Part shown: piece after piece, positions 14,728-64,000 of the stretch
Layout of the letters: the number at the start of each line of letters is the position of its first letter
How positions within the stretch are numbered: position 1 is the stretch's first letter
DNA from: Octopus vulgaris
Lineage: Eukaryota
Reading direction: 5' to 3'
Assembly (NCBI GenBank): GCA_951406725.2
Contig: OX597816.1
Location: forward strand, 88,102,001-88,166,000
Length of the DNA stretch: 64,000 bases
Notes under the pieces: generated by a model
What the model was told of the DNA's origin: nothing
The model's input: only the letters and a program-made list of their open reading frames with translations
Database searches by the model: none
Made by a program: the position numbers and the translations under genes

Positions 14728-15251
14728 GCCGTCAACCTAGCAAGCTTCGCTTGATCTTGCTTCGTGGATTTTATAAAGAAAAATACATAATACCTGTACT
14801 TGCACCCTACAAGTTTGTACTATCGTGGATAGCAGGTTAATTGCTGTCGAGTGGTTGAGTTTATTTTCCTGTTTTGTCCCCCATAACTGGGGGACAGGTC
14901 AATCGATTTTGCTTTTCAGTGAAAGTTGTTTGCGTTTCCCCCATCAATATGCAGAAATCACAATGAAACACGGTGATGCTTATATGTGAGAGAGGAGGAG
15001 AGAATGAGGTGCGTCACCAAACGTTAATAAGAGAGAGAGAGGGAGAGAGAGAGAGGGAGTGGCTCGCTGGAAAAAAAAAACAGACGATAGCTGTATTTTT
15101 GCTGAATAAAAAGAACAAACAAACAGCAGGGCCAATTTTTTCGAGAAAGATCTTTTAATGAATCTATAGGAAAACAACGGTTCCTTTTTCGACGACATTC
15201 TTCGAAATAAAAAACAGCAATTTCGAAAATGTAAACAATGGGGCTCCTTTC

Positions 15252-15900
15252 GTGAGCGAAGCGATGGACAATGTGAGTACAAGTTTCAACAGAAACAGCA
15301 GTAACGACAGAAGCAAGAACTACAACAACAGCAACAACAACAACATCAGCTGTAGTAGTAGTAGCAACAACAACAACAATAAAAACAATGATGGAACTGA
15401 GAAACAAGCTGGTGCAACGGCTTGGAATAACTCTAAACTTTTCTTTGCTAGAGTTACCAAGTCATTTCTTCAGAGAATACAATTCTCCGAAGAGGAACTT
15501 AAAAATGCCAGACTGCTAGTCGAGAGAGATGGGTTAGATGTAAAGGTAAATATCCTCTTTGAGACTATCCAGGATACGATACACCACACAATGGCGTACC
15601 ATACAATCGGATTAAAATCAAGGAAGGTAGACAGAGCCACAGAAGCTCAAATACAAAAAGCTTTAGGTTCCGTCTGGAATCTAAAGGAATATATACAGAG
15701 GGGAAGGTGCTATGGGCTGGTGGAGGTCAGATTCCACACAGAGGAGGAAGTGAAATCTCACAATCTGAATACCTTTAAAAACGAGGAGCTGTTGTCGATT
15801 CCTGTTCACTGCAGCCAGAGACTGGCCAAAATCATCATTCAACAGGTGCCGCCAGAAATAGCCATTCTTTGGTTAATTGCTTGGTTAAAGGCATGGAGGA
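15252..15900 (+). pseudogene. LINE (Tx1/L1-type) ORF1-like RNA-binding protein fragment
   Basis: YIQRGRCYGLVEVRFHTEEE...IPVHCSQRLAKIIIQQVPPE aligns by eye with FISRGR*FRTVEVRFASEGE...LPTYCGQRVVRVRVGRVPPE at 53.8-54.0 kb, which carries a zinc knuckle. Confidence 0.6.
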
Positions 15901-17899
15901 AAACTCGAAAATCCTCGAAGCTTATCAGACCAAAAAGAGAACTATTCAAGACACTCTCACTTCTAGGTAATTTTTTTGATTTTGTTTCAAAATAACATGA
16001 ATTTTCGCCCAAGTCTGGGCAAAAACAAGAAAGACATTTCAATCTTTATTTTTGTCAGTTGATGTTTAATGTAGAAACGCCCACCACTAATCAAGGAAGA
16101 ACCCTGACAGCTGAAAAAAAAAAAACAACAAACACACACACACACACATAGACGAAAAAACGTAAAAGCAAATCAACAAAATACTGCAAACGAAACTGCC
16201 AATATTTTGAAGCAAACGAAAAAATATGTTTCTTTGGATTTTGACATGAAAGAGAACGACTTCTGTAACTCTCTAAACTACATCAACAATGGTAAACATC
16301 ACTATCACAACCATCATCACTGCTATTACCACCACAATCACCAACACTACCACCATACCCATCACCACTACTATCACCACCATAACAACAATATCATGCA
16401 ACTTTGCATACATTGCCATGCAAATATTGTTTCCAATAAAGAAATTTTTAGATATAGACCAAGTGCGGTTAGAGGAACAAAATTGGCAGGAGTGTGCCAT
16501 TAAGGAAAATGTATTCTGATCACAGGGAATTTACTCTAGTGCTACAAGAACACTGACCTATTTCTGCCTAAGAAAATAGCATAAATCTCTGTGCCCTCTT
16601 AGTATGATTTGAAGGAGATCCTGATAGATATGTAGGAGATATCTTGCACACTGAGTGGGGAAAAGCATGGCGTAGTGTTTGCAAGCTTTCCAAGACTAAA
16701 GACTAAGGAATATTGCATTTAAAGAGAAAAATCACACATACCTACCCATAATTTATGAAATAGAGGTAGTGAGATACGCAGCTATTCATAAAGTTTCATA
16801 TTGCCTAGCAAGCACATAGCTTTTGATTTGTAGCCGTTTCAAATTGAACCACATACAATTAGCACGATAGTAAGTCGGTGGGTCTCGGTACGTCGCTGTA
16901 GTTTAGCTGGAATATTTCGTTAGCTGCGTGAATAACTGAAGCAAACTCGCGAACATTTAGTTGAAATATTCTTTGCCTGGCATAAAGATATTTGGTGTTG
17001 GCCATTTACAATGAACAATATTAACAACTGCTGACTGCGAGGAAGAAAAAAACCGCTTTTAAATTATAAAACTATCCTTGTAACAACATGCGGTCGGTCA
17101 CAAAAGTACGACAAAAATATATGAAGTTATCTGCGCAAACCTTCTTGGTGAAAGAAGACTGTTGCCTGTCTACGATCTAAGGTACGCACCAAACTATTTT
17201 TATAGGAGAGAAGCGGTTTTACTCAAGAACAACTGAGAAAACTATATCATGCCACAGCCTCACGCGGATTGTTCGATTTATAGACTGATCATGTGAAACT
17301 AAGGTGGTTCACTCGTGGTGTCAGACCAAGCAGCTAGCGGCTAAGTTTCGAATCACTGCTAAAATGTTTTGGCAAGACAGATTACATCCAGAAATCGCAA
17401 ATCTGTGGTTATAAAAAAAGAAAACTAACGCTGGGGTATTTGACAGAATCGTTTGAACATGGGATGAACCTAGACTTATATATATATATATAAAACATTA
17501 TTATACTATTCATACTTTTATGCTGGAATCGTGCCAGTCTAGAAAGTGGCTTGAACACAGAATGTATATTGAGAGTAAATCAACTACATCGTAGAAGAGC
17601 CATTCTAGCCATTTAGTAACTCACAAAACCTGCTAAAATCACATTTTATTTGTTACAGGAAGTGAAAAAATTGCACAACACTAACTTTTTTCATGGACAT
17701 GGAACTGTTTGAAAATTTGGTTAATGATCAGTTCTTATATAATTCAGTTTTCTTTTATTTGCCTTGACATTTTGATTCTTTATCTTCCGTAATGAAATAG
17801 ACGTTTTGGCTGCTGAATTCATGTGGACATCACTCGTCTGTAGGCCTTCGTTAGTCATTTACAATTTCGATTTTCTTTCTTTTTTCATTGTCAGCAACA

Positions 17900-20485: not shown

Positions 20486-20689
20486 ATATGTATATCATGA
20501 CTGCCACTTTCGGCTGTTTACGGTCGCTGTCAATATGTATGTATACAATTATGTGCGTTGACTGCAGCATCAGAGCACGTCGGCTCTTATTTCTTACACT
20601 GTAGGTTTTTTAGCACCCTATGTGATATTTAATGACAATTATAGCTTTCCACTTAGGTGGTACATTTCTAAACTGCTGCCTAATTTAAT

Positions 20690-43138: not shown

Positions 43139-43690
43139 ATAACTTATAAAATAAGTGCAAAAGAAAAATTCTAATGCCAAATATGCCGAAAATAGACAAA
43201 ATTGTCAATAACATATATTACATATATAACATATAATAGTGTTCACTTCCGGAATCTATCACTTTGTGAAAGTTTCTAGTTCGAATCACACGTGTCTCGA
43301 GATGTGCTGAAGATTTTCTATTTTGGATATATTTGAGGTACTTAGGTCTGCTCAGGACTTAGTGCTTGATTTTCCCATGGGCATGAGTAAGTATTTCATT
43401 TATGTCTCACGTATCTATCGCTGAGGAAGGGAAAATTGTTATGAATTAACTCTGAAATTGGGACCAATACGGTAATAACGTAAATTTTAAGTAATTCTAT
43501 CGGCTTGTTTCGAGTCGCATAAATTATCATGGTTATTGACAATTTTGTCTATTTTCGGCATATTTGGCATTAGAATTTTTCTTTTGCCTTTATTTAATAA
43601 GTTATTTATAAATTAACCTTTAAAGGTATTTTATAATATGCTGGCCATTGATAAATTTTTTTTCGAAAAATGTTATCCTACATAAGATGT
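43139..43690 (+). mobile_element. (TA)n-flanked PLE-like element with inverted repeat (43139-43212 / 43532-43606)
   Basis: AAAAGAAAAATTCTAATGCCAAATATGCCGAAAATAGACAAAATTGTCAATAAC and its exact reverse complement; internal HHR. Confidence 0.7.
43416..43474 (+). ncRNA. Type I hammerhead ribozyme, canonical core
   Basis: TATCG-CTGAGGA-AGGG..CTCT-GAAA-TTGG-GA-CCAA-TA-CGGTA. Stem III AUUGG/CCAAU with a 2-nt loop; AUA triplet. Confidence 0.75.
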
Positions 43691-44954: not shown

Positions 44955-46216
44955 CAGAGGTTGTACAAAATAATAGAAACACCTTAAAATTTCAAACAAA
45001 TATATTTCGATATAGAGTAGGACCGCCTTTGGCAGTAATAACAGCTTGAATTCTACGAGGTATGGACTCGTACAAAGTTTGAATTGTTTACGAAGGAATT
45101 TTTGTCCATTCTTCAGCTAAAGCAGTCTCCAGGTCTTGTAGTGATGATGGTGGAGGATATCGACTACTTACGTGTTTTTCTAAAATGTACCATAAATGTT
45201 CAATAATATAGAGATCTCGGGATTGTGGTAGCCAGATAAGATGTTCAACTTCACTAGAATGTTCCTCGTGCCATTCAATAACAACTTTAGCTGCCTGCAT
45301 GAATTGGTGCTTTATCATCCTGAAAGATTATGCAACCATAGGATGAATTTCATCAGATAAAATGCTTAAATAGTCTTGACTATTAATTTTGCCATGAAGG
45401 GAAACCATTGGGCAGGCGGATTTCCAATACATAGCCCCCACCCACCAGATCACAGATCCTCCGCCTTGTTTAACAGTTGAACGAAGTCAGTCTGGATCAA
45501 ATGCTTCTTTTGGCTGCCCCCACACGCATACTCGGTCGGTGATCGGAAATAAGGTAAAGGATGACTCGTTCGAGAAAATAACATGGTTCCACTGATCTAG
45601 GGAACAATTCTGTAGGTTTTTATTCCACTCTAAACGCTTTGCAACATTTGTTTTTGAAAGTAATGGTATTCTGATTGCAACCCTCCCGTGAAATCCGGTT
45701 TTGTGTAGCTCCCAGCGAACAGGTTTTGTGGAAACTGGGTTCTCGAGGTGGTCATTATACTCTGCAGTAATTTTGGGTTCTGCACTTTTGTGATCCTTTC
45801 TAGCAATTCATGTAATAAGAGTCTGACGGTCCGTATGTGAAAGTTGTGGTTTTCTTCCGGAGTTTTGTTTCGACGAGGAGGTTTTTTCCTTCTTTCTCAA
45901 AGGCTGTCATTACTTTCGGGACAGTACTTCTTGATACACCAAACATTTCAGCTGTTTTCGCTACGCTAGCGCCTGCCATACTAGTACCAACAATTTGACC
46001 TCTTTTAAAGTTTGATAGATTTGTCATTTTAATGAATTTTAATTACCTTTTTCTGATAATATCTAAACAGAAACTGCAATTTTAGCAACACATAGTAAGC
46101 AACACTAATAATAAATCAAAAGCATAAAAAATAAGCAAGCTTTTCACAGTTTTATAGATATTTCAAAATTAGTATGCTGTGATGCTAGGTGTTTCCATTA
46201 TTTTGTCCAACCCCTG
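44955..46216 (-). mobile_element. Full-length Tc1-family transposon
   Basis: TIRs CAGAGGTTGTACAAAATAATAGAAACACCT / AGGTGTTTCCATTATTTTGTCCAACCCCTG; TA TSD on both sides. Confidence 0.92.
45010..46027 (-). pseudogene. Tc1 DD34E transposase pseudogene
   Basis: MTNLSNFKRGQIVG..AEMFGVSRSTV (HTH), VIFSNESSFTLF, WLPQSRDLYIIEHLW, SIPRRIQAVITAKGGPT; frameshifts present. Confidence 0.9.
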
Positions 46217-51545: not shown

Positions 51546-53044
51546 TTATTAAAATACTATCATTGCTTACGACATCGAAAGGCAGTAGCCCGTGTGTGGT
51601 TGATCAATTTGTTAGATCCTCTACCGTATTAAAGAAGGAAAATGCTCTTTACTAAATGCAGTAAGAGACATACCGTAAGAGGTGAAGTGGCTATGGGCAA
51701 CATGACTTTGATCATAATCTTAAATGGTAAGGTCTGAGTAAACAACAGCAATATTTGCAAAGCCCGTTAGGAGCTATGGCTATTAGTACAATTATATGAA
51801 TTGAGTTAAGTGTTAGCATTAAGTGTCTTTGGTATAAATTCATTTGAGAGTAGATATTGATTTAGACATAAGACAATTTTTATTTAAGACGGTACAATGT
51901 GGTTTGAGAAATTCGACTTGCATATTATGTACAGGAATAGCAACCATTTTTTAAAGTTAGTAGGATGGTATACACAGGAACTTCGGCTGCTATTTCTGGC
52001 AGGTTAAACAAACACATGACGATTCACAACAGAACTTAATTTTCAACATAACTGGATAGAAGGCCCTGTTTTGAAAACATCCAAGAAACAAAAGACACAC
52101 ATATAACAAACTCAAAGATTACCTCCTTCTGTGAAATCTTTAGATTTATAAAAGAATTAACGTGTCAGACTGAAACTGAAAAATAGGACGCCCCAGCTTG
52201 GCCAAAGTCCAAAAACAAAGAAATAAAAGATAAAAGTTATACTCCAAAACACAAAGGGGAGTGTACATTTATATAAATATTTTTATATCCTTTTTACTGC
52301 ATTTGTGAAGTCCTTTATTATTTCATTGAAGAAATGAGAATAAGACCTAAAAATATCCACAAGCTATCTCCAATACATATATAAATCATTCATTAGATAT
52401 CATTATTTTTCTCCGTTGCCTACTTATTTCTTGTTAGTTTTCATCATTTTAATGCTATGTGCATTTTATGTGCTAGCAGTAATTAACTGTACTCTATAAT
52501 GCGAATGAGGTCCCTAGATGTCTTAATTTCTAAACGAAAACAATAATTTGACCCCGATTTCTCTAATTTTGTATATATATCTTTACTTTCTTCTCCTCAT
52601 ATTTATCTTGGTTTCTAACGTCACAGTTTACATCCACACATTTCTTTCAAGGCAACTTGTATCTATAATCATGTATAGTTATTCGCACTACGCATTTTCT
52701 TTCATTTGTGGATTTGTCACTGTAAACATTTGTCACTCTACGTGTGCATCTGTGCGTGTCCGCGCGAATGTGTATCCATGCATGCATAGACGAGCACACA
52801 CACATTTATGAGTATATGCACCCCCACCCCCACCCCCACACAAAATTAATATAAACCTCAGCTTGCAATGTTTCGCCAAAAAGAAGAATTATGATTATCA
52901 CTAAATGTGACTAGGATATTACAAAACACCTACATTGCTTGAAATAACAGCTAAACCACTCTAATGCTGTAGTTAACGCAATTGAATGAAAACATATACA
53001 CCAACAGGGACCGTAATAGTCCGAAAAGTGCCGATGGAGAATTC

Positions 53045-53091
53045 TTAATACTGACGTCAGTTTCGGCAATGTCTATTGCCTCATCAGTTAA
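53045..53091 (-). ncRNA. Type I hammerhead ribozyme, perfect core and stems
   Basis: TTAA-CTGATGA-GGCAAT-AGAC-ATTGCC-GAAA-CTGACGTCAG-TA-TTAA. 12-nt perfect palindromic stem III ACUGACGUCAGU; GUA triplet. Confidence 0.88.
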
Positions 53092-53169
53092 ACCTGTTCG
53101 ATTGTTCAGCTCTTTTCGGATTCGCTTCGCCATTAGTTTTCGTCATCCAAATTCTTGGATGATCTCGTG

Positions 53170-54400
53170 TTCCACTCTTGACGCCACTTCTTCCATTTCG
53201 GTTTGTGTGCTGTTTCTTCTCGTTGCTGTTCTACTGAAAAAAACCTTTCCAAATATCCTTGTTTGTGACTCCCCCTCCCCCTCCTCCTCCTCGTCCTCCT
53301 CTATAACCTCATTCTCAACCTCCTCTTCTACCTCTTTCTTGATTTCGTTTTCAGCATTCTTTACGACTTCTTCCTCAATCTCCTTATCTGCTTCTTTTTT
53401 CGTTTTCTGCCTTTCCGACGGAGAGCACTTCCGCTTTCTTTTTTAACCACTTCAAATTCCTTCTCTATTCGTGATGTCTCCTCATCTTTCTGTTCCACAT
53501 CGTTCACTCTATCCTGTTCTTCAGACTGTTCCATTTGTTGCTCTTTCTCTTATCTCTGGGGGCACCTCGCATTCATGTAGCTTTCTCGCCACACAAGAAG
53601 CATATGGGAGGCCTGCCCTCTACCACCACTCTTAATCTCACATCTTCGGGTAATATAATTTCTTCTAGAATCTTATTCATATCACTCACAGTTGTCTGCA
53701 CTGCCCTCTCGATTTCGTAACCCCATTAGTTGACTCTTTTCGTTCTTGTTACTCTCAAGATCATCGCCTCCTCCTCCATATTGTACATGGCTGCAGCAAC
53801 CAGCCATGTTTCTTCAATTCTGGTGGTACTCTTCCCACCCTAACTCTGACAACTCTCTGTCCACAGTATGTCGGTAGGAGCACCCACACTTCTGTATTTA
53901 TGGTATCAGTGGAATGCTTTATCGCTTCGCCTTCGCTTGCGAATCGCACCTCCACAGTGCGAAATCATCTTCCTCTTGATATAAATGGCGTAACCTTTTT
54001 GACCTGTTTCAGACACTTCTCTATCACTTCTATGGATGCAATTTCGATTTTCTTTGTCGATACTTTCAGTGCTTTGTAAATCACTGCTTGTTTCTTCACA
54101 TTTGATAACTCGAGCGGGGGCTTCAATTTAAGGTTTTGGCCTTCCTTTTCTAAAAGTTTGCCGCGTTCTTTCAGCTTTTTCGGCTCAAATTTAACTTCTT
54201 GAACCTCCAAAGTTTCTACTTCAATTCCTCTGCCAGTTGCAGCCGCATAAATGTGGCTCTTCGCTGGTTCAGTCTCCGTTACACTTCTTTTCGCTGGTTC
54301 TCACATAAATGGGAAGAAAAAACAGAATTCAACAAAACCTCGTTCGTACAAACAGCAATTTCAGCAACGAACAAACGTGGTACACCCACGAGGGGAGACC
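53170..54400 (-). pseudogene. Tx1/L1-type ORF1 (RRM-like + zinc knuckle + E/K-rich tail) with 5'UTR, no ORF2
   Basis: VEVRFASEGEA...VRVGRVPPE, then VVVEGRPPICFLCGEK(fs)..RCP (CCHC-type knuckle), then an acidic/basic low-complexity tail. Confidence 0.7.
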
Positions 54401-54586
54401 GTTAACAATTATAACAATATCACGACTTACTTCAACGTAATCGTAAAAAAGACTGCCACAACCAAAGAATTTCTCGCGGAATGATCTAGTGATTCGCGAT
54501 CTAGTTATTCGGAATAATCTAGTGATTCTTGGATGATCTAGTGATTCGCGAAGTGAGTGCGGAAGGAGCCGAACAATCGAGCGGGC

Positions 54587-54632
54587 TTAACTGATGAGGC
54601 AACGGAAATTGCTGAAATTGACGTCAGTATTA
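54587..54632 (+). ncRNA. Type I hammerhead ribozyme (second arm)
   Basis: TTAA-CTGATGA-GGCAA-CGGAAA-TTGCT-GAAA-TTGACGTCAG-TA-TTA. Stem substitutions relative to the left copy give G-U pairs. Confidence 0.8.
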
Positions 54633-55127
54633 TCAGCACTTTTCGGACGATTCTGGTCCATGTTAGTGTATGCTTTCATAGTTCTTATTCCTAGCGATGT
54701 AGGTGTTTCGTAACAACATAGTCACATTTAGTGACAATTAAATGTGTGTATGTGTGTGCGCGCGCGTGTGTGTGAGGTTAGTATTTGAAAGTAAATTTAA
54801 GAATAACAATGGAACATTTATTGCTGGTGACGAGTCAATTGTTGGAGTAGATTTATATTTGTTATGAGATTCGATTTGTGTGGAACTTGAAGGTGAGCAC
54901 ACAGTAAATGCGGCAGTGACTAGGTCAGAGTAGTGAGAGAAAAATATTGATATCTCATGAAATAAATTTAGATTGAAAAGTAATTTGATAAATGTGAGTA
55001 TTAAGAAGTGTGCATAACCGATGTGCAACAATGAAATTGCTTCAGTTTTAGCAGCCGAAATTTCTCATTTCTGGAACCAGAAAGTCTTGTTAGGGACTCA
55101 TGCAAACTCTGCTTTAACTAATATATT

Positions 55128-55174
<47 letters not shown>

Positions 55175-55175
<1 letters not shown>

Positions 55176-55600
55176 AACATTCAGGTTGAAAGGGTAATAG
55201 AAGCTCGGTCTGATTTAGTAGCAGTAGATAAAGAGAATAGAAAGTTCGAGATAATTGACTTTACAGTCCAAAATGATGAAAAAAATCAATATGAGAGGTA
55301 TAGAAAAAATAGCAAAGTACCAGGACCCAGCCATTGAATTGCGGAGATTATGGAAAGTGGTGATAAAATGTACCCCAGTAGTTATAGGTGCTTTGGGAAC
55401 TATCCCTAAATATCTGAACAGATGAACAGATGAAATAGGCATAAAATCCAGTTTAGTACAGCTCCAGAAAACAGTGTTATTAGGGACAGCTAGAATATTT
55501 AGGAAGGTTCTTGGCATCTAAGGTTACTTGTTATAGCCCGATGTTAGAATTTTTTCTTCTTTTCCATCTATTGTGTGTATATAAAAATAAATAATCATAA
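55175..55600 (+). mobile_element. R4/Dong-type retrotransposon 3' end (RLE domain)
   Basis: IEAR(S)DLVAVDK..IIDF..EKIAKYQD.AIELRRLWK..PVVIGALGTIPK..LQKTVLLGTARIFRKVL*; begins after (TAG)n and ends in a TAA-like tail. Confidence 0.88.
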
Positions 55601-56429: not shown

Positions 56430-57009
<580 letters not shown>

Positions 57010-57013
<4 letters not shown>

Positions 57014-57322
57014 CAAAGGTAATAAACCAGATATTTTTGTGAAAGACCAAAGCAATAAAATCTGTTTATTGGTTGACATGAGCATACCTTGTGATCATAA
57101 TATATCGACAAAAGAATTTGATAAGCGCAGAAAATATAAAGATCTGCTGACAGAAATCGAAAAAAAAATGTGGCATCTCAGGGAGATTATAATACCAGTG
57201 ATTGTATGAGCGCTTGGAATGATCAGAAAAGAAACTGAAAATTATTTAAGAATGAACCCTAGTTTACCATCCATGCAGAAAGTGCAAAAGATTGTCTTAA
57301 CTGGTACGTCACACGTACTGAA
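57010..57322 (+). mobile_element. R4/Dong-type RLE domain fragment after (TAA)n
   Basis: NKPDIFVKD..CLLVDMSIPCD..KEFDK..KYKDLLTEIEKKMWHL..IPVIV*ALG..VQKIVLTGTSHVLK (PD..D..K catalytic motif). Confidence 0.88.
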
Positions 57323-57530
57323 GGCGTTGTGCTGTCAGAATCGTTAGCATTGTGGGCGAAATGCTTGGCGGTATTTCATGTTTTTACGTTTTGAGTTCAA
57401 ATTCCGCCCGGGTCGACTTTCATCCCTCCGGGATCGATAAAATAAGTACCAGCTGAGTACTGGGATCGATGTAATCGACTTACCCCCTACCCCAAATTTC
57501 AGGCTTTGTACCTATGATAGAAAGGATTAT
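57322..57530 (+). mobile_element. SINE group E
   Basis: GAGTTCAAATTCCGCC.GGTCGACTTT..GATCGATAAAATAAGTACCAG. Confidence 0.8.
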
Positions 57531-62721: not shown

Positions 62722-64000
62722 AGATTCCCGGTCCCTTCGCTCCCACCCCTTTTAGTCGCTTCTTATGCCACGCAGGGAATACAATGATTGCATTCTACCG
62801 ATACCCCCCAGTCGCAAGTGTTGCGGTTGTATGGAGTAGATGGTAGATTGTTGAGAGCTGTTCAGAGTTATTATAGAGAAAATAAGGCATGCGTTTGGGC
62901 GAGTGGTGAAGCGAGGGGTTTGATGTGAAGGTGAGGATTAAGACAGGGTTGGGTGATGTCTCTGGGGCTGTTTAATTTCTATATGGATGGTGTGGCGAGA
63001 GAGGTAAATGCTAGAACCTTTGGCAGGGGAACACAAATGGTGGGAGAAATGGCATGTGAGTCGGTTGTTCTTTGCTGATGATACAGCTCTGGTGGTAGAT
63101 TCAGAAGAGCAACTGAGGAGACTGGTGGCAGAGTTTGGAAGAGTGTGTGAGAGGAGGAAACTGAAAGTGAATGTAGTTACGAGTAAGGTGATGAGATGTA
63201 CGAGAGATGGAATGGCTGGTAGCTTGGATGTGAGTATAAATGGTGAGATGTTAAAGGAGGTGAGTGTTTTTAAGAACCTGGGATCACATGTGACGGCGGA
63301 TGGGATACAGAGTGAGGGAGGGGAGTAAGATACTTGAAGTTGTGAAAGGTATTCTGAAAGATAAAAGGTTGAGTATGAAAGCAAAATGAGGTGTGTATGA
63401 GGGCGTGATTTTGCCGACAATGTTATATAGTGCAGAGACGTGGGGGCTGAGAGAGGCGGAAAGGAAGCGACTAGATGTGTTTGAGATGAGATGTCTCAGG
63501 GATATGGTTGGTATGACACGGATGGACAGGATAAGGAATGGAGAGGTGCGCAGGAGAGCAGGAATGAGAGAAAACTAACAAGCAAAATGAATGGACGAAT
63601 GTTGAGGTGGTTTGGCCATATGGAGAGGGTGGATGAGGAGCGGATGGTAAGGAGGGTGATGAAGGCAGAAGTAGTAGGCAGCAGAACCAGAGGCAGACCT
63701 CGGTTTGTGAGGATGGATGGAGTGAGGAAAGCTTTGGTGTTAGAGGTGTTGGGGTGAGAGAGGTAAGAGAGTTTATAAATGAGAGGAAAGCTTGGAGAGT
63801 GTTTGTGGATGGATGAGTGAATTTGATGTTGCTCAAAGGGTTACGGAACCAACATGACGCGGCGGGGGTAAGCCAGCATATGCTGTCGGGTTCCGCTGCT
63901 GATACTGGGGTTGTGTTCTATGCCTTGACCTGAACATAGAACGGGGCCCGCCACTTTGAGCTGCGAAATGAATGGAATGCTTGGTGTGTGTCTTGTTGTG
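62722..64000 (+). mobile_element. RTE-clade LINE: RT/C-terminal fragment and 3'UTR, with an apparent inverted 5'-end segment (62722-62810)
   Basis: LRQGWVMS..LFNFYMD, LFFADDTALV, LPTMLYSAETW, FEMRCLR, LRWFGHMER, RGRPR are RTE ORF2 motifs; frameshifted; runs to the window end. Confidence 0.9.

What the first reader, a model, noticed from the sequence alone, without database searches (positions are those of the whole stretch)
52898..54736. 1.84-kb unit: two outward-facing hammerhead ribozymes in inverted terminal repeats enclosing an RT-less gag/ORF1-like gene
Seen: inverted arms of about 190-230 bp each contain a complete type I HHR, at 53045-53091 (minus) and 54587-54632 (plus). Stem III is a 12-nt palindrome, perfect in the left copy. 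Between the HHR copies, differences are mostly G-U-compatible stem changes or in the stem II loop region, while the rest of the arms has indels. Inside lie a Tx1/L1-type ORF1 pseudogene with a zinc knuckle and a short GATCTAGTGATTC tandem array (~54480-54550); one unit of it also appears at ~53151-53172. Established: palindromic-stem-III HHRs mark Penelope-like pLTRs and cleave as dimers, and inverted pLTRs occur in PLEs. Inference: this is either a new composite non-autonomous element (ribozyme ends plus an RNA-binding ORF1, mobilised in trans) or an ORF1 insertion into an inverted-pLTR pair. Transcription in either direction would meet one sense HHR near the 3' end.
Basis: partly seen in the sequence, partly recalled or inferred. 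Interest (0 to 1): 0.82.

Follow-up and report, generated by a model that had tools for sequence, protein, structure and literature searches.

The report
Penelope fold-back pair enclosing LINE ORF1
Two ribozyme-bearing ends of an abundant Penelope-type jumping gene face outward around a decayed gene for an RNA-binding protein that likely came from another kind of jumping gene, and the whole is probably a dead one-off insertion of a known layout, not a new element family.

Summary
The anatomy is real. There are two complete type I hammerheads with a 12-nt palindromic stem III, in inverted arms 84% alike. Between them lie a decayed RRM-RRM-CCHC (type I LINE ORF1-like) gene and a four-unit array. 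Named homologs are octopod.

The arms are not private terminal repeats. In four DNA runs they match far more contigs than the interior (85-114 and 47-66, against 15-28), and contigs join left arm to right arm without the ORF1. The left arm carries a one-sided tail of at least 26 nt and a 20-nt palindrome at its inner end. This is the published Penelope insertion layout, which is known to carry unrelated cargo in trans (PMC3846280).

Both cargo junctions look near single-copy, and a 19-23-nt direct repeat brackets the cargo.

Best reading: a one-off, dead Penelope-driven capture of a LINE 5' half (0.42). Later nesting gets 0.30. A recurring ORF1-carrying Penelope parasite is not excluded (0.18), because no genome was available. 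The two ribozymes lie on opposite strands and cannot dimerise in cis; a read-through RNA is predicted to bury the sense one in a long duplex.

The parts
52868..52893 (-). One-sided 3' extension ('tail') of the left arm, absent from the right arm; outer limit not fixed (52850-52868)
   Evidence: 49-76 contigs per run carry a variant at 52893; 12-20 contigs per run have loose ends at 52898 whose 30-letter consensus resembles window 52868-52897; alignment
52894..53130 (-). Left arm: pseudo-LTR-like end of a high-copy Penelope-type repeat, sense with the ORF1
   Evidence: 85-114 contigs per run with a variant at 52940
53045..53091 (-). Type I hammerhead, intact core, perfect 12-nt palindromic stem III, predicted cut after 53049; the ATG of the core opens a frame of about 80 codons with 2 stops
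53143..53162 (.). 20-nt quasi-palindrome (8-bp stem, 4-nt loop) at the inner end of the left arm; most of it is shared with other family copies
   Evidence: sequence; loose end at 53137 in 12 contigs of run X1
53151..53172 (+). Left copy of a 19-23-nt direct repeat that brackets the cargo (pLTR stub or target-site duplication)
   Evidence: 4 of 1500 random zone pairs match as well
53173..53280 (-). Linker between the ORF1 acidic tract and the arm; an open frame runs through it but has no detectable homology; near single-copy
   Evidence: bin 53183-53269
53281..54306 (-). Decayed type I LINE-like ORF1: two RRM-like domains, a CCHC knuckle (broken by a frameshift near 53580), Lys/Glu-rich tail; several stops and frameshifts; no ORF2
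   Evidence: model of homolog P0003; Atlas
54307..54476 (-). 5' leader of the ORF1, shared with other copies to about 54420
   Evidence: 11-22 contigs with a variant at 54401; listed pieces end at 54419-54423, one (record 8, X1) running on for 276 nt that do not fit the window
54477..54547 (+). Four-unit tandem array; its outermost unit (54525-54547) is the right copy of the direct repeat; single-copy level where covered
   Evidence: row 54507 (1 contig each in X4 and X8)
54548..54738 (+). Right arm: inverted, shorter copy of the same pseudo-LTR-like end, running into a (TG)n tract
54587..54633 (+). Type I hammerhead, intact core, stem III palindrome with one mismatch, stem I cut to 3 bp by an 11-nt gap; predicted cut after 54629
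   Evidence: 47-66 contigs per run carry the palindrome-matching letter at 54618

Best explanation
This is a decayed head-to-head pair of hammerhead-bearing ends of a high-copy repeat, likely Penelope-type pseudo-LTRs, around the broken ORF1-like gene, and it likely arose once, when a Penelope-like enzyme copied in trans an RNA that ran from a LINE 5' end through ORF1 into a pseudo-LTR and then folded back. Shown: the arms, ribozymes, tail, palindrome, ORF1 fold, direct repeat, high arm abundance and ORF1-free arm-to-arm joints. Inferred steps: (1) a precursor in which a pLTR had landed in the 3' part of a LINE ORF1, cutting off ORF2; (2) transcription from the LINE leader; (3) priming inside the pLTR at two start sites, which gives the one-sided tail as in the Anolis element PAc; (4) template jump and fold-back at the RNA 5' end, giving the inverted arm. 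On this reading the 23-nt repeat and the array are the stub and slippage scar of the upstream direct pLTR. The unit is predicted to be inert. ORF1 is broken. The ribozymes prefer inactive folds as monomers, could pair only in trans through stem III, and are buried in a read-through RNA. Confidence in 'one-off composite' of any route is about 0.75; the figure below is for this route.
For: The layout matches the published one: inverted repeats flanking the unit, a tail on one side only, and a palindrome at the pLTR 5' end (10.1101/2021.04.23.441226 passages; PMC3846280 section 6). pLTRs are documented to carry unrelated cargo in trans: an NRPS gene, 0.9-1.5-kb spacers and non-coding stretches. 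An ORF start at the ATG of the ribozyme core and the two-start origin of the tail are documented for PAc; the same ATG opens a frame here. Arm family: 85-114 contigs with a variant at 52940 and 47-66 at 54618, against 15-28 at 54251 (ORF1), 1-2 at 53418 and 53433, and 1 at 54507 in the two runs that cover it. Rough summed-depth ratios to the unique flank are 586-925 (tail), 168-295 (left HHR), 8-18 (just inside), 0.8-1.7 (53183-53269, three covering runs) and 20-37 (best ORF1 bins) (the tool warns that this is no copy number). 3 of the 15 listed joints (129 more not shown) skip from left arm to right arm on one strand. The firmest, 53096 to 54575 with a 52-nt side, is in 2 of 4 runs. The cargo keeps a whole leader ending near the family boundary, and no frame of the flanks looked like ORF2. 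Folding: monomer active fold -5.3 against MFE -12.2 (left) and +0.3 against -9.2 (right); stem III self-duplex -19.3 and -14.7; arm-arm duplex -228.
Against: The direct repeat is as easily read as a target-site duplication. No convincing outer TSD was found, only a 6-nt AT-rich candidate that overlaps the arm. No autonomous partner was found, so the link of the arm to an RT/GIY-YIG element rests on architecture (empty; the ribozyme of Hydra-1_Obim differs). The route needs two unseen events, the precursor and the loss of most of the upstream direct pLTR. The cargo 3' part is partly low-complexity and may simply fall under the 80% cut-off in relatives. Contigs show presence, not absence, and two of the three arm-to-arm joints have sides under 30 nt. 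An open frame runs 99 codons up to the palindrome, as expected if ORF1 natively ended there.
Confidence: 0.42

Rival explanations
1. Later nesting. An ordinary head-to-head pLTR pair existed first. The ORF1 piece then entered next to the central palindrome, either as an ORF2-less LINE copy inserted by a LINE (possibly Tx1-type, target-seeking) endonuclease or as filler during repair of a cruciform break. The 19-23-nt repeat is the target-site duplication and the array is reiterated copying of the target.
For: A direct repeat sits at both inner boundaries, matched by 4 of 1500 random zone pairs. Removing the cargo leaves an arm-to-arm joint like those seen elsewhere. The loop letters of the palindrome here match the right copy of the repeat rather than the loose-end consensus of 12 other contigs. 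L1-Tx1 families are recently active in O. vulgaris (PMC13282606).
Against: The insert has no poly(A) or ORF2 3' end. The extra repeat units lie at its 5' side. The insert keeps an intact leader, whereas LINE copies are usually 5'-truncated (established knowledge, recalled).
Confidence: 0.3
2. A recurring non-autonomous element. A leader, ORF1 and hammerhead pLTR form one unit that spreads with Penelope enzymes and supplies an RNA chaperone, the Penelope counterpart of HeT-A or HAL1. The inverted arm is its usual 5' insertion product.
For: ORF1 is sense with the longer, tailed arm and has an open frame up to the palindrome. The interior is multi-copy (15-28 contigs at 54251). None of the 25 hit proteins scanned with Pfam, out of 82 hits, carries an RT or endonuclease domain. 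Two O. bimaculoides gene models hold tandem or partly tandem ORF1 pieces (P0024, P0006). Both ORF1 copies in this window are 5' halves without ORF2. A PLE with a zf-CCHC upstream ORF and a hammerhead exists in Chara (Chlamys-2_cBra).
Against: The arm-proximal part of the cargo is near single-copy while the ORF1 core is multi-copy, the reverse of a 3'-anchored family. No homology links 53281-53140 to the C-termini of 6 homologs. The one other ORF1 copy in the window (15162-15995; 29% identical, 3'-truncated) has no arm or ribozyme beside it. One paralog contig runs on for 276 unrelated nt at the 5' side.
Confidence: 0.18
3. Chance pile-up: two independent pLTR fragments landed on either side of an old ORF1 remnant.
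For: Arm fragments are very common. A 70%-identical piece lies at 20518-20643 and hammerhead-like relics at 43421-43469 and probably 54821-54850. The arms differ by 16% and two gaps.
Against: It does not explain the direct repeat and array at exactly the two inner junctions, the matching outer ends with a one-sided tail, or two intact ribozymes when a relaxed family pattern finds no others in 64 kb. The arm divergence is like that between the ORF1 and paralog pieces (about 40-55 differences in 300-330 nt), which fits one old event.
Confidence: 0.05

Closest known systems
pLTR-framed cargo mobilised in trans by Adineta vaga Penelope elements (Pen3a-NRPS, Pen1 spacers; Arkhipova, Yushenova, Rodriguez 2013, PMC3846280; read: abstract, sections 6, 9, 11)
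   Same: Unrelated sequence between pLTRs, an inverted 5' pLTR shorter than the tailed one, a palindrome at the pLTR 5' end, cargo of about 1.3 kb, no RT in the unit
   Different: The cargo here is a LINE ORF1 remnant. The upstream direct pLTR is missing except possibly a 23-nt stub. No clear outer TSD or empty site was shown, and the host is an octopod.
Canonical EN+ Penelope-like insertion unit (Craig et al. 2021, 10.1101/2021.04.23.441226 / PMC8557442, read: passages and supplement searches; Frangieh et al. 2024, PMC11167929, read: parts 1-2 of 4)
   Same: Inverted repeats flanking the unit, a one-sided tail, a hammerhead in the pLTR, an ATG in the ribozyme core, steep enrichment of the 3' end
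   Different: No RT or GIY-YIG ORF. The parent element is not identified, and the octopus Hydra-1_Obim ribozyme is a different sequence.
Metazoan PLE hammerheads (Cervera and De la Pena 2014, PMC4209133; read: parts 1-2 of 4)
   Same: Type I topology, short stem I, palindromic helix III, likely dimeric activity; opposite-strand pairs 100-700 bp apart were already reported
   Different: Stem III is longer (12 nt; 14 nt in some copies), the pair is 1.5 kb apart, and it encloses a coding remnant
ORF1-only non-autonomous LINEs HeT-A, HAL1, Ag-Sponge (as summarised in Kojima 2018, PMC5786205; read: passages)
   Same: Leader plus ORF1 without ORF2
   Different: Those keep the 3' end of their LINE partner and are families. 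Here the 3' end is a Penelope-type arm and recurrence is not shown.
Animal non-LTR retrozymes (10.64898/2026.07.22.740005, read: part 1 of 5) and Terminons (via review PMC6431247, passages)
   Same: Type I hammerheads in PLE-derived repeats; Terminons place ribozyme repeats next to accessory ORFs
   Different: Retrozymes are non-coding direct tandems. Terminons are giant, RT-encoding and telomeric.

Membership tests
Type I hammerhead of PLE kind | Conserved core with stems I-III and a cleavage triplet | tested here: met
   (descriptor; strict shuffles 0.0 per window); Rfam gave no hit
Type I hammerhead of PLE kind | Palindromic helix III allowing a dimer | tested here: met
   self-duplex -19.3 and -14.7 kcal/mol; palindrome-matching letter in 47-66 contigs; a centre insertion that keeps the palindrome in 3-15 contigs
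Type I hammerhead of PLE kind | Self-cleavage | not testable with these tools
   monomer MFE folds are inactive
EN+ Penelope-like element (autonomous) | RT plus GIY-YIG ORF between pLTRs | tested here: not met
   the interior encodes only an RRM-RRM-CCHC remnant; no RT seen in the flank frames
PLE insertion product (pLTR pair) | Inverted, shorter 5' copy and one-sided 30-40-nt tail | tested here: met
   tail at least 26 nt, outer limit not fixed
PLE insertion product (pLTR pair) | Palindrome at the pLTR 5' end | tested here: met
   53143-53162, shared to 53159 with 12 contigs
PLE insertion product (pLTR pair) | Arm is the terminal repeat of an RT-encoding PLE of the same genome | tested here: inconclusive
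   arm peptide search empty; no match in the Craig supplement; no genome
PLE insertion product (pLTR pair) | Outer target-site duplication (optional in PLEs) | tested here: inconclusive
   only a 6-nt candidate that overlaps the arm
Type I LINE ORF1 | RRM domain(s) plus a CCHC knuckle | tested here: met
   zf-CCHC above cut-off in 2 of 25 scanned hits, CCHC-type matches under cut-off in 2 more; model of homolog P0003 hits tandem RRMs; definition from PMC5203782
L1/Tx1 clade | Linked APE-RT ORF2 of that clade | tested here: inconclusive
   no ORF2 here; type I ORF1 also occurs in other clades
ORF1-only non-autonomous LINE (HAL1/HeT-A kind) | Recurring family with a LINE-derived 3' end | tested here: inconclusive
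   no poly(A) at 53173; junction near single-copy; absence cannot be shown with contigs
   both junctions near single-copy and ORF1-free arm pairs present; full count not possible
Non-LTR retrozyme | Direct tandem non-coding units, each with a hammerhead | tested here: not met
   units are inverted and enclose a coding remnant

The most novel reading that the evidence does not exclude
Octopods carry a family of RT-less elements made of a LINE-type RRM-RRM-CCHC ORF1 joined to a Penelope hammerhead pseudo-LTR, spread by Penelope enzymes: a cross-class hybrid parasite that would supply Penelope RNPs with an RNA chaperone, perhaps the protein that helps their weak ribozymes fold and cut.
Probability: 0.18. 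Interest if true: 0.68.

Novelty: new member of a known kind. Interest (0 to 1): 0.3.

Why it matters
On the best reading it matters modestly. It is one more case, in an octopod, of Penelope terminal repeats framing foreign DNA, here a piece of another retroelement class. It also points to an abundant hammerhead-bearing repeat and an RRM-RRM-CCHC ORF1 family whose parent elements I could not find described (searches; none addressed them). If the ORF1-pLTR unit recurs, it would be a Penelope counterpart of HeT-A/HAL1. It would also offer a direct test of an open question: PLE hammerheads cut poorly alone and the PAc ribozyme needs protein, so one could ask whether this ORF1 protein assists cleavage.

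Tried and rejected
- No genome is held for the window, so the decisive count of loci could not be run.
- Pattern and protein scans of metagenome, prokaryote and viral collections found nothing, as expected for animal DNA.
- Two alignment-based locus searches could not run for lack of conserved columns.
- The Terminon paper was not held.
- The supplement of PMC13282606 was listed but not read; its repeat library may already hold the arm family or this ORF1.

Empty or weak searches:
- Rfam has no hammerhead match.
- The word-index protein search with the read-through ORF1 piece and with the arm peptide found none; the profile search gave only 4 octopus proteins.
- Pfam on 6 window fragments found nothing meaningful. 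Pfam on 106 frames (100 of 146 listed frames plus 6 others) found one RT relic and Tc1-type transposase pieces only.
- VIA-align gave only middling RRM/ferredoxin-like Z scores (best 8.2) and did not list L1 ORF1p; this does not exclude it.
- No RNA holder was listed; this says nothing on expression.
- Uncovered places (54507 in X1 and X6; 53183-53269 in X8) are not used as evidence.

Ideas rejected:
- Selection on the ribozyme inferred from G-U-compatible changes (p = 0.65).
- A coding constraint on the arm (differences 3/3/8 by codon position, best of three frames, 14 sites).
- ORF1 natively ending at the palindrome by C-terminal homology (no significant match to 6 homologs).
- Identity with Hydra-1_Obim.
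- DIRS-like ITR element (recalled model): not tested beyond the absence of an RT/YR ORF.
- A recalled 23-bp TSD for Xenopus Tx1L could not be confirmed in print and is not used.
Full report
SETTING. The window is 35.6% GC and rich in microsatellites. No genome is held. Of 20 protein hits looked up, the 16 that carry an organism name are from Octopus sinensis, O. bimaculoides, O. vulgaris or Argonauta hians, so the host is very likely an octopod (inference). Penelope-like and L1-Tx1 families are both abundant and partly recent in O. vulgaris (PMC13282606, part 1 of 3 and passages; PMC8967140, passages).

Inverted arms lie at 52894-53130 and 54548-54738. They are identical at 160 of 191 aligned columns, 21 of 31 differences are transitions, and the right arm has gaps of 11 and about 33 nt. 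A type I hammerhead descriptor gave 3 loose hits in the window, two being the reported ones; 100 shuffles gave 0.07 loose and 0.0 strict hits per window. Rfam does not detect them. Stem III is a perfect 12-nt palindrome on the left. The right mismatch is private, since 47-66 contigs per run carry the matching letter at 54618, and 3-15 contigs have a two-base insertion at the centre that keeps the palindrome. The ribozymes are no better conserved than the rest of the arms (6 of 47 against about 25 of 144, p = 0.65).

THE INTERIOR. Broken minus-strand frames match many of the stored homologs from about 54315 to about 53281. A paralog in the window at 15162-15995 is 29% identical over 148 residues (E 1e-15); searching with it gave 82 hits. 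Pfam found zf-CCHC above cut-off in 2 of 25 scanned hits and no RT or endonuclease domain in any. A model of the full-length homolog P0003 (mean pLDDT 61.8, core about 90) matches tandem-RRM proteins (28 Foldseek matches at E <= 0.001). The Atlas places homolog P0012 near CCHC and ZCCHC3-like clusters (0.90-0.92, a lead). RRM plus CCHC defines type I ORF1, which occurs in L1/Tx1 but also in other clades (PMC5203782 passages), so 'Tx1/L1' is plausible but unproven. No frame of the flanks looked like ORF2. The stretch 53281-53140 has an open frame but no significant likeness to the C-termini of 6 homologs.

THE ARMS ARE A COMMON REPEAT, THE JUNCTIONS ARE NOT. Contigs of four DNA runs (X1, X4, X6, X8; three organism codes) were laid at 80% likeness. 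Contigs bearing a variant letter number 85-114 at 52940 (tail), 47-66 at 54618 (right ribozyme), 15-28 at 54251 and 11-22 at 54401 (ORF1 5' part and leader), 1-2 at 53418 and 53433, and 1 at 54507 (array) in the two runs that cover it. Summed depth over the unique flank, which the tool says is no copy number, falls from 586-925 in the tail to 168-295 at the left ribozyme, 8-18 just inside it and 0.8-1.7 at 53183-53269 (three covering runs). It rises to 20-37 in the best ORF1 bins. That is a 3'-anchored gradient for the arm with a dip at the cargo junction. Of 15 joints listed (129 more not shown), 3 go from left arm to right arm on one strand and skip the interior: 53096 to 54575 in 2 of 4 runs with a 52-nt side; 53064 to 54556 and 53091 to 54712 in 3 of 4 runs with sides under 30. 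Head-to-head arm pairs without ORF1 therefore exist. Other copies continue past 52898 like the left flank, so the left arm has a tail of at least 26 nt that the right arm lacks. 12 contigs continue inward from 53137 through most of the 20-nt palindrome at 53143-53162. Against my reading: contigs cannot prove absence, only the best rows were shown, and a fast-diverging cargo 3' end would also look single-copy.

THE INNER DIRECT REPEAT. 53151-53172 and 54525-54547 are a direct repeat (21 of 23 columns); 4 of 1500 random zone pairs match as well. The right copy is the outermost of four array units. It can be a target-site duplication of a later insert, or the stub of an upstream direct pLTR. The only outer duplication candidate is 6 nt and overlaps the arm.

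WHAT IS KNOWN. Craig et al. describe an inverted 5'-truncated copy that gives inverted repeats around the whole insertion, with a 30-40-bp tail on one end, and a Chara element with an upstream zf-CCHC ORF and a hammerhead (passages). Arkhipova et al. 2013 describe palindromes at pLTR 5' ends, inverted pLTRs 37 bp shorter, 0.9-1.5-kb captured spacers and an NRPS gene moved in trans between pLTRs (sections 6, 9, 11). Cervera and De la Pena report opposite-strand hammerhead pairs 100-700 bp apart, no monomer activity and low dimer activity (parts 1-2 of 4). Frangieh et al. show that the PAc ORF starts at the ribozyme, that the tail lies between two RT start sites, and that the ribozyme needs protein and is dispensable for insertion in vitro (parts 1-2 of 4). 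Here the core ATG opens about 80 codons with 2 stops on the left. ORF1-only LINEs (HeT-A, HAL1, Ag-Sponge) are known (PMC5786205 passages). Searches for octopus hammerheads or ORF1-bearing non-autonomous PLEs returned no description of this unit. The library lacks most subscription papers, and I did not see Repbase or the O. vulgaris repeat library. The octopus Hydra element has a different ribozyme.

HOW IT LIKELY WORKS. Shown: the anatomy, the abundance contrast, ORF1-free arm pairs and the direct repeat. Inferred: a pLTR that had cut a LINE at the end of ORF1 gave a leader-ORF1-pLTR transcript; a Penelope-like RT/endonuclease primed inside the pLTR, copied to the LINE 5' end, jumped and folded back, leaving the inverted arm and the array scar (0.42). 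Alternatively the ORF1 piece entered an existing pair (0.30), the ORF1-arm unit is a family (0.18), or the neighbours are chance (0.05); about 0.05 is left for other routes. Present activity is unlikely. The monomer active folds are 7-9 kcal/mol above inactive ones. Stem III can pair only between two RNAs of the same sense, and the two ribozymes are on opposite strands. A read-through RNA is predicted to form an arm-arm duplex of about -230 kcal/mol against about -50 for the arm alone. Only a transcript starting inside the leader would present the left ribozyme free.

VERDICT. A real, well-spotted structure whose layout and probable mechanism are already described. The LINE ORF1 cargo is a new instance. 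Interest 0.3; the family reading would deserve about 0.68 and can be settled by one genome-wide count.

Noticed in passing
window 15162-15995 (+): Second, distant copy of the same ORF1 family (29% identical), 3'-truncated near 15970, with no arm or ribozyme beside it. Two ORF1 5' halves without ORF2 in 64 kb is odd for LINEs (recalled expectation).
   Followed up: partly
window 20518-20643 (+): 70%-identical fragment of the arm's tail without the ribozyme, between microsatellites.
   Followed up: partly
window 43421-43469 (+): Third hammerhead-like motif of another family (stems 5/4/5, near-palindromic stem III); loose hits are expected 0.07 times per shuffled window.
   Followed up: partly
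window 54770-54850 (+): Repeat just outside the right arm. 11 contigs of run X6 continue from 54820 with a hammerhead-like core, and the window has a decayed look-alike there.
   Followed up: no
window 53054 (table 4): 3-15 contigs per run have a two-base insertion at the centre of stem III that lengthens the palindrome to 14 nt, hinting that the palindrome is maintained in the family.
   Followed up: no
window 54310-54362 and 15068-15224: The leaders of the two ORF1 copies share two short A-rich motifs (17 and 13 nt) in the same order on the + strand although the ORFs face opposite ways; may be low-complexity chance.
   Followed up: partly
proteins P0024 and P0006 (O. bimaculoides gene models): Hold tandem or partly tandem copies of ORF1 pieces; the DNA context could not be fetched.
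   Followed up: no
window 55122-55520 and 56940-57344 (+): Decayed frames resembling the C-terminal endonuclease region of Dong/R4-type LINEs (motif recalled; no Pfam hit).
   Followed up: no
window 45490-46042 (-) and 63008-63325 (+): Tc1/mariner-type transposase HTH pieces and a weak RVT_1 relic.
   Followed up: no
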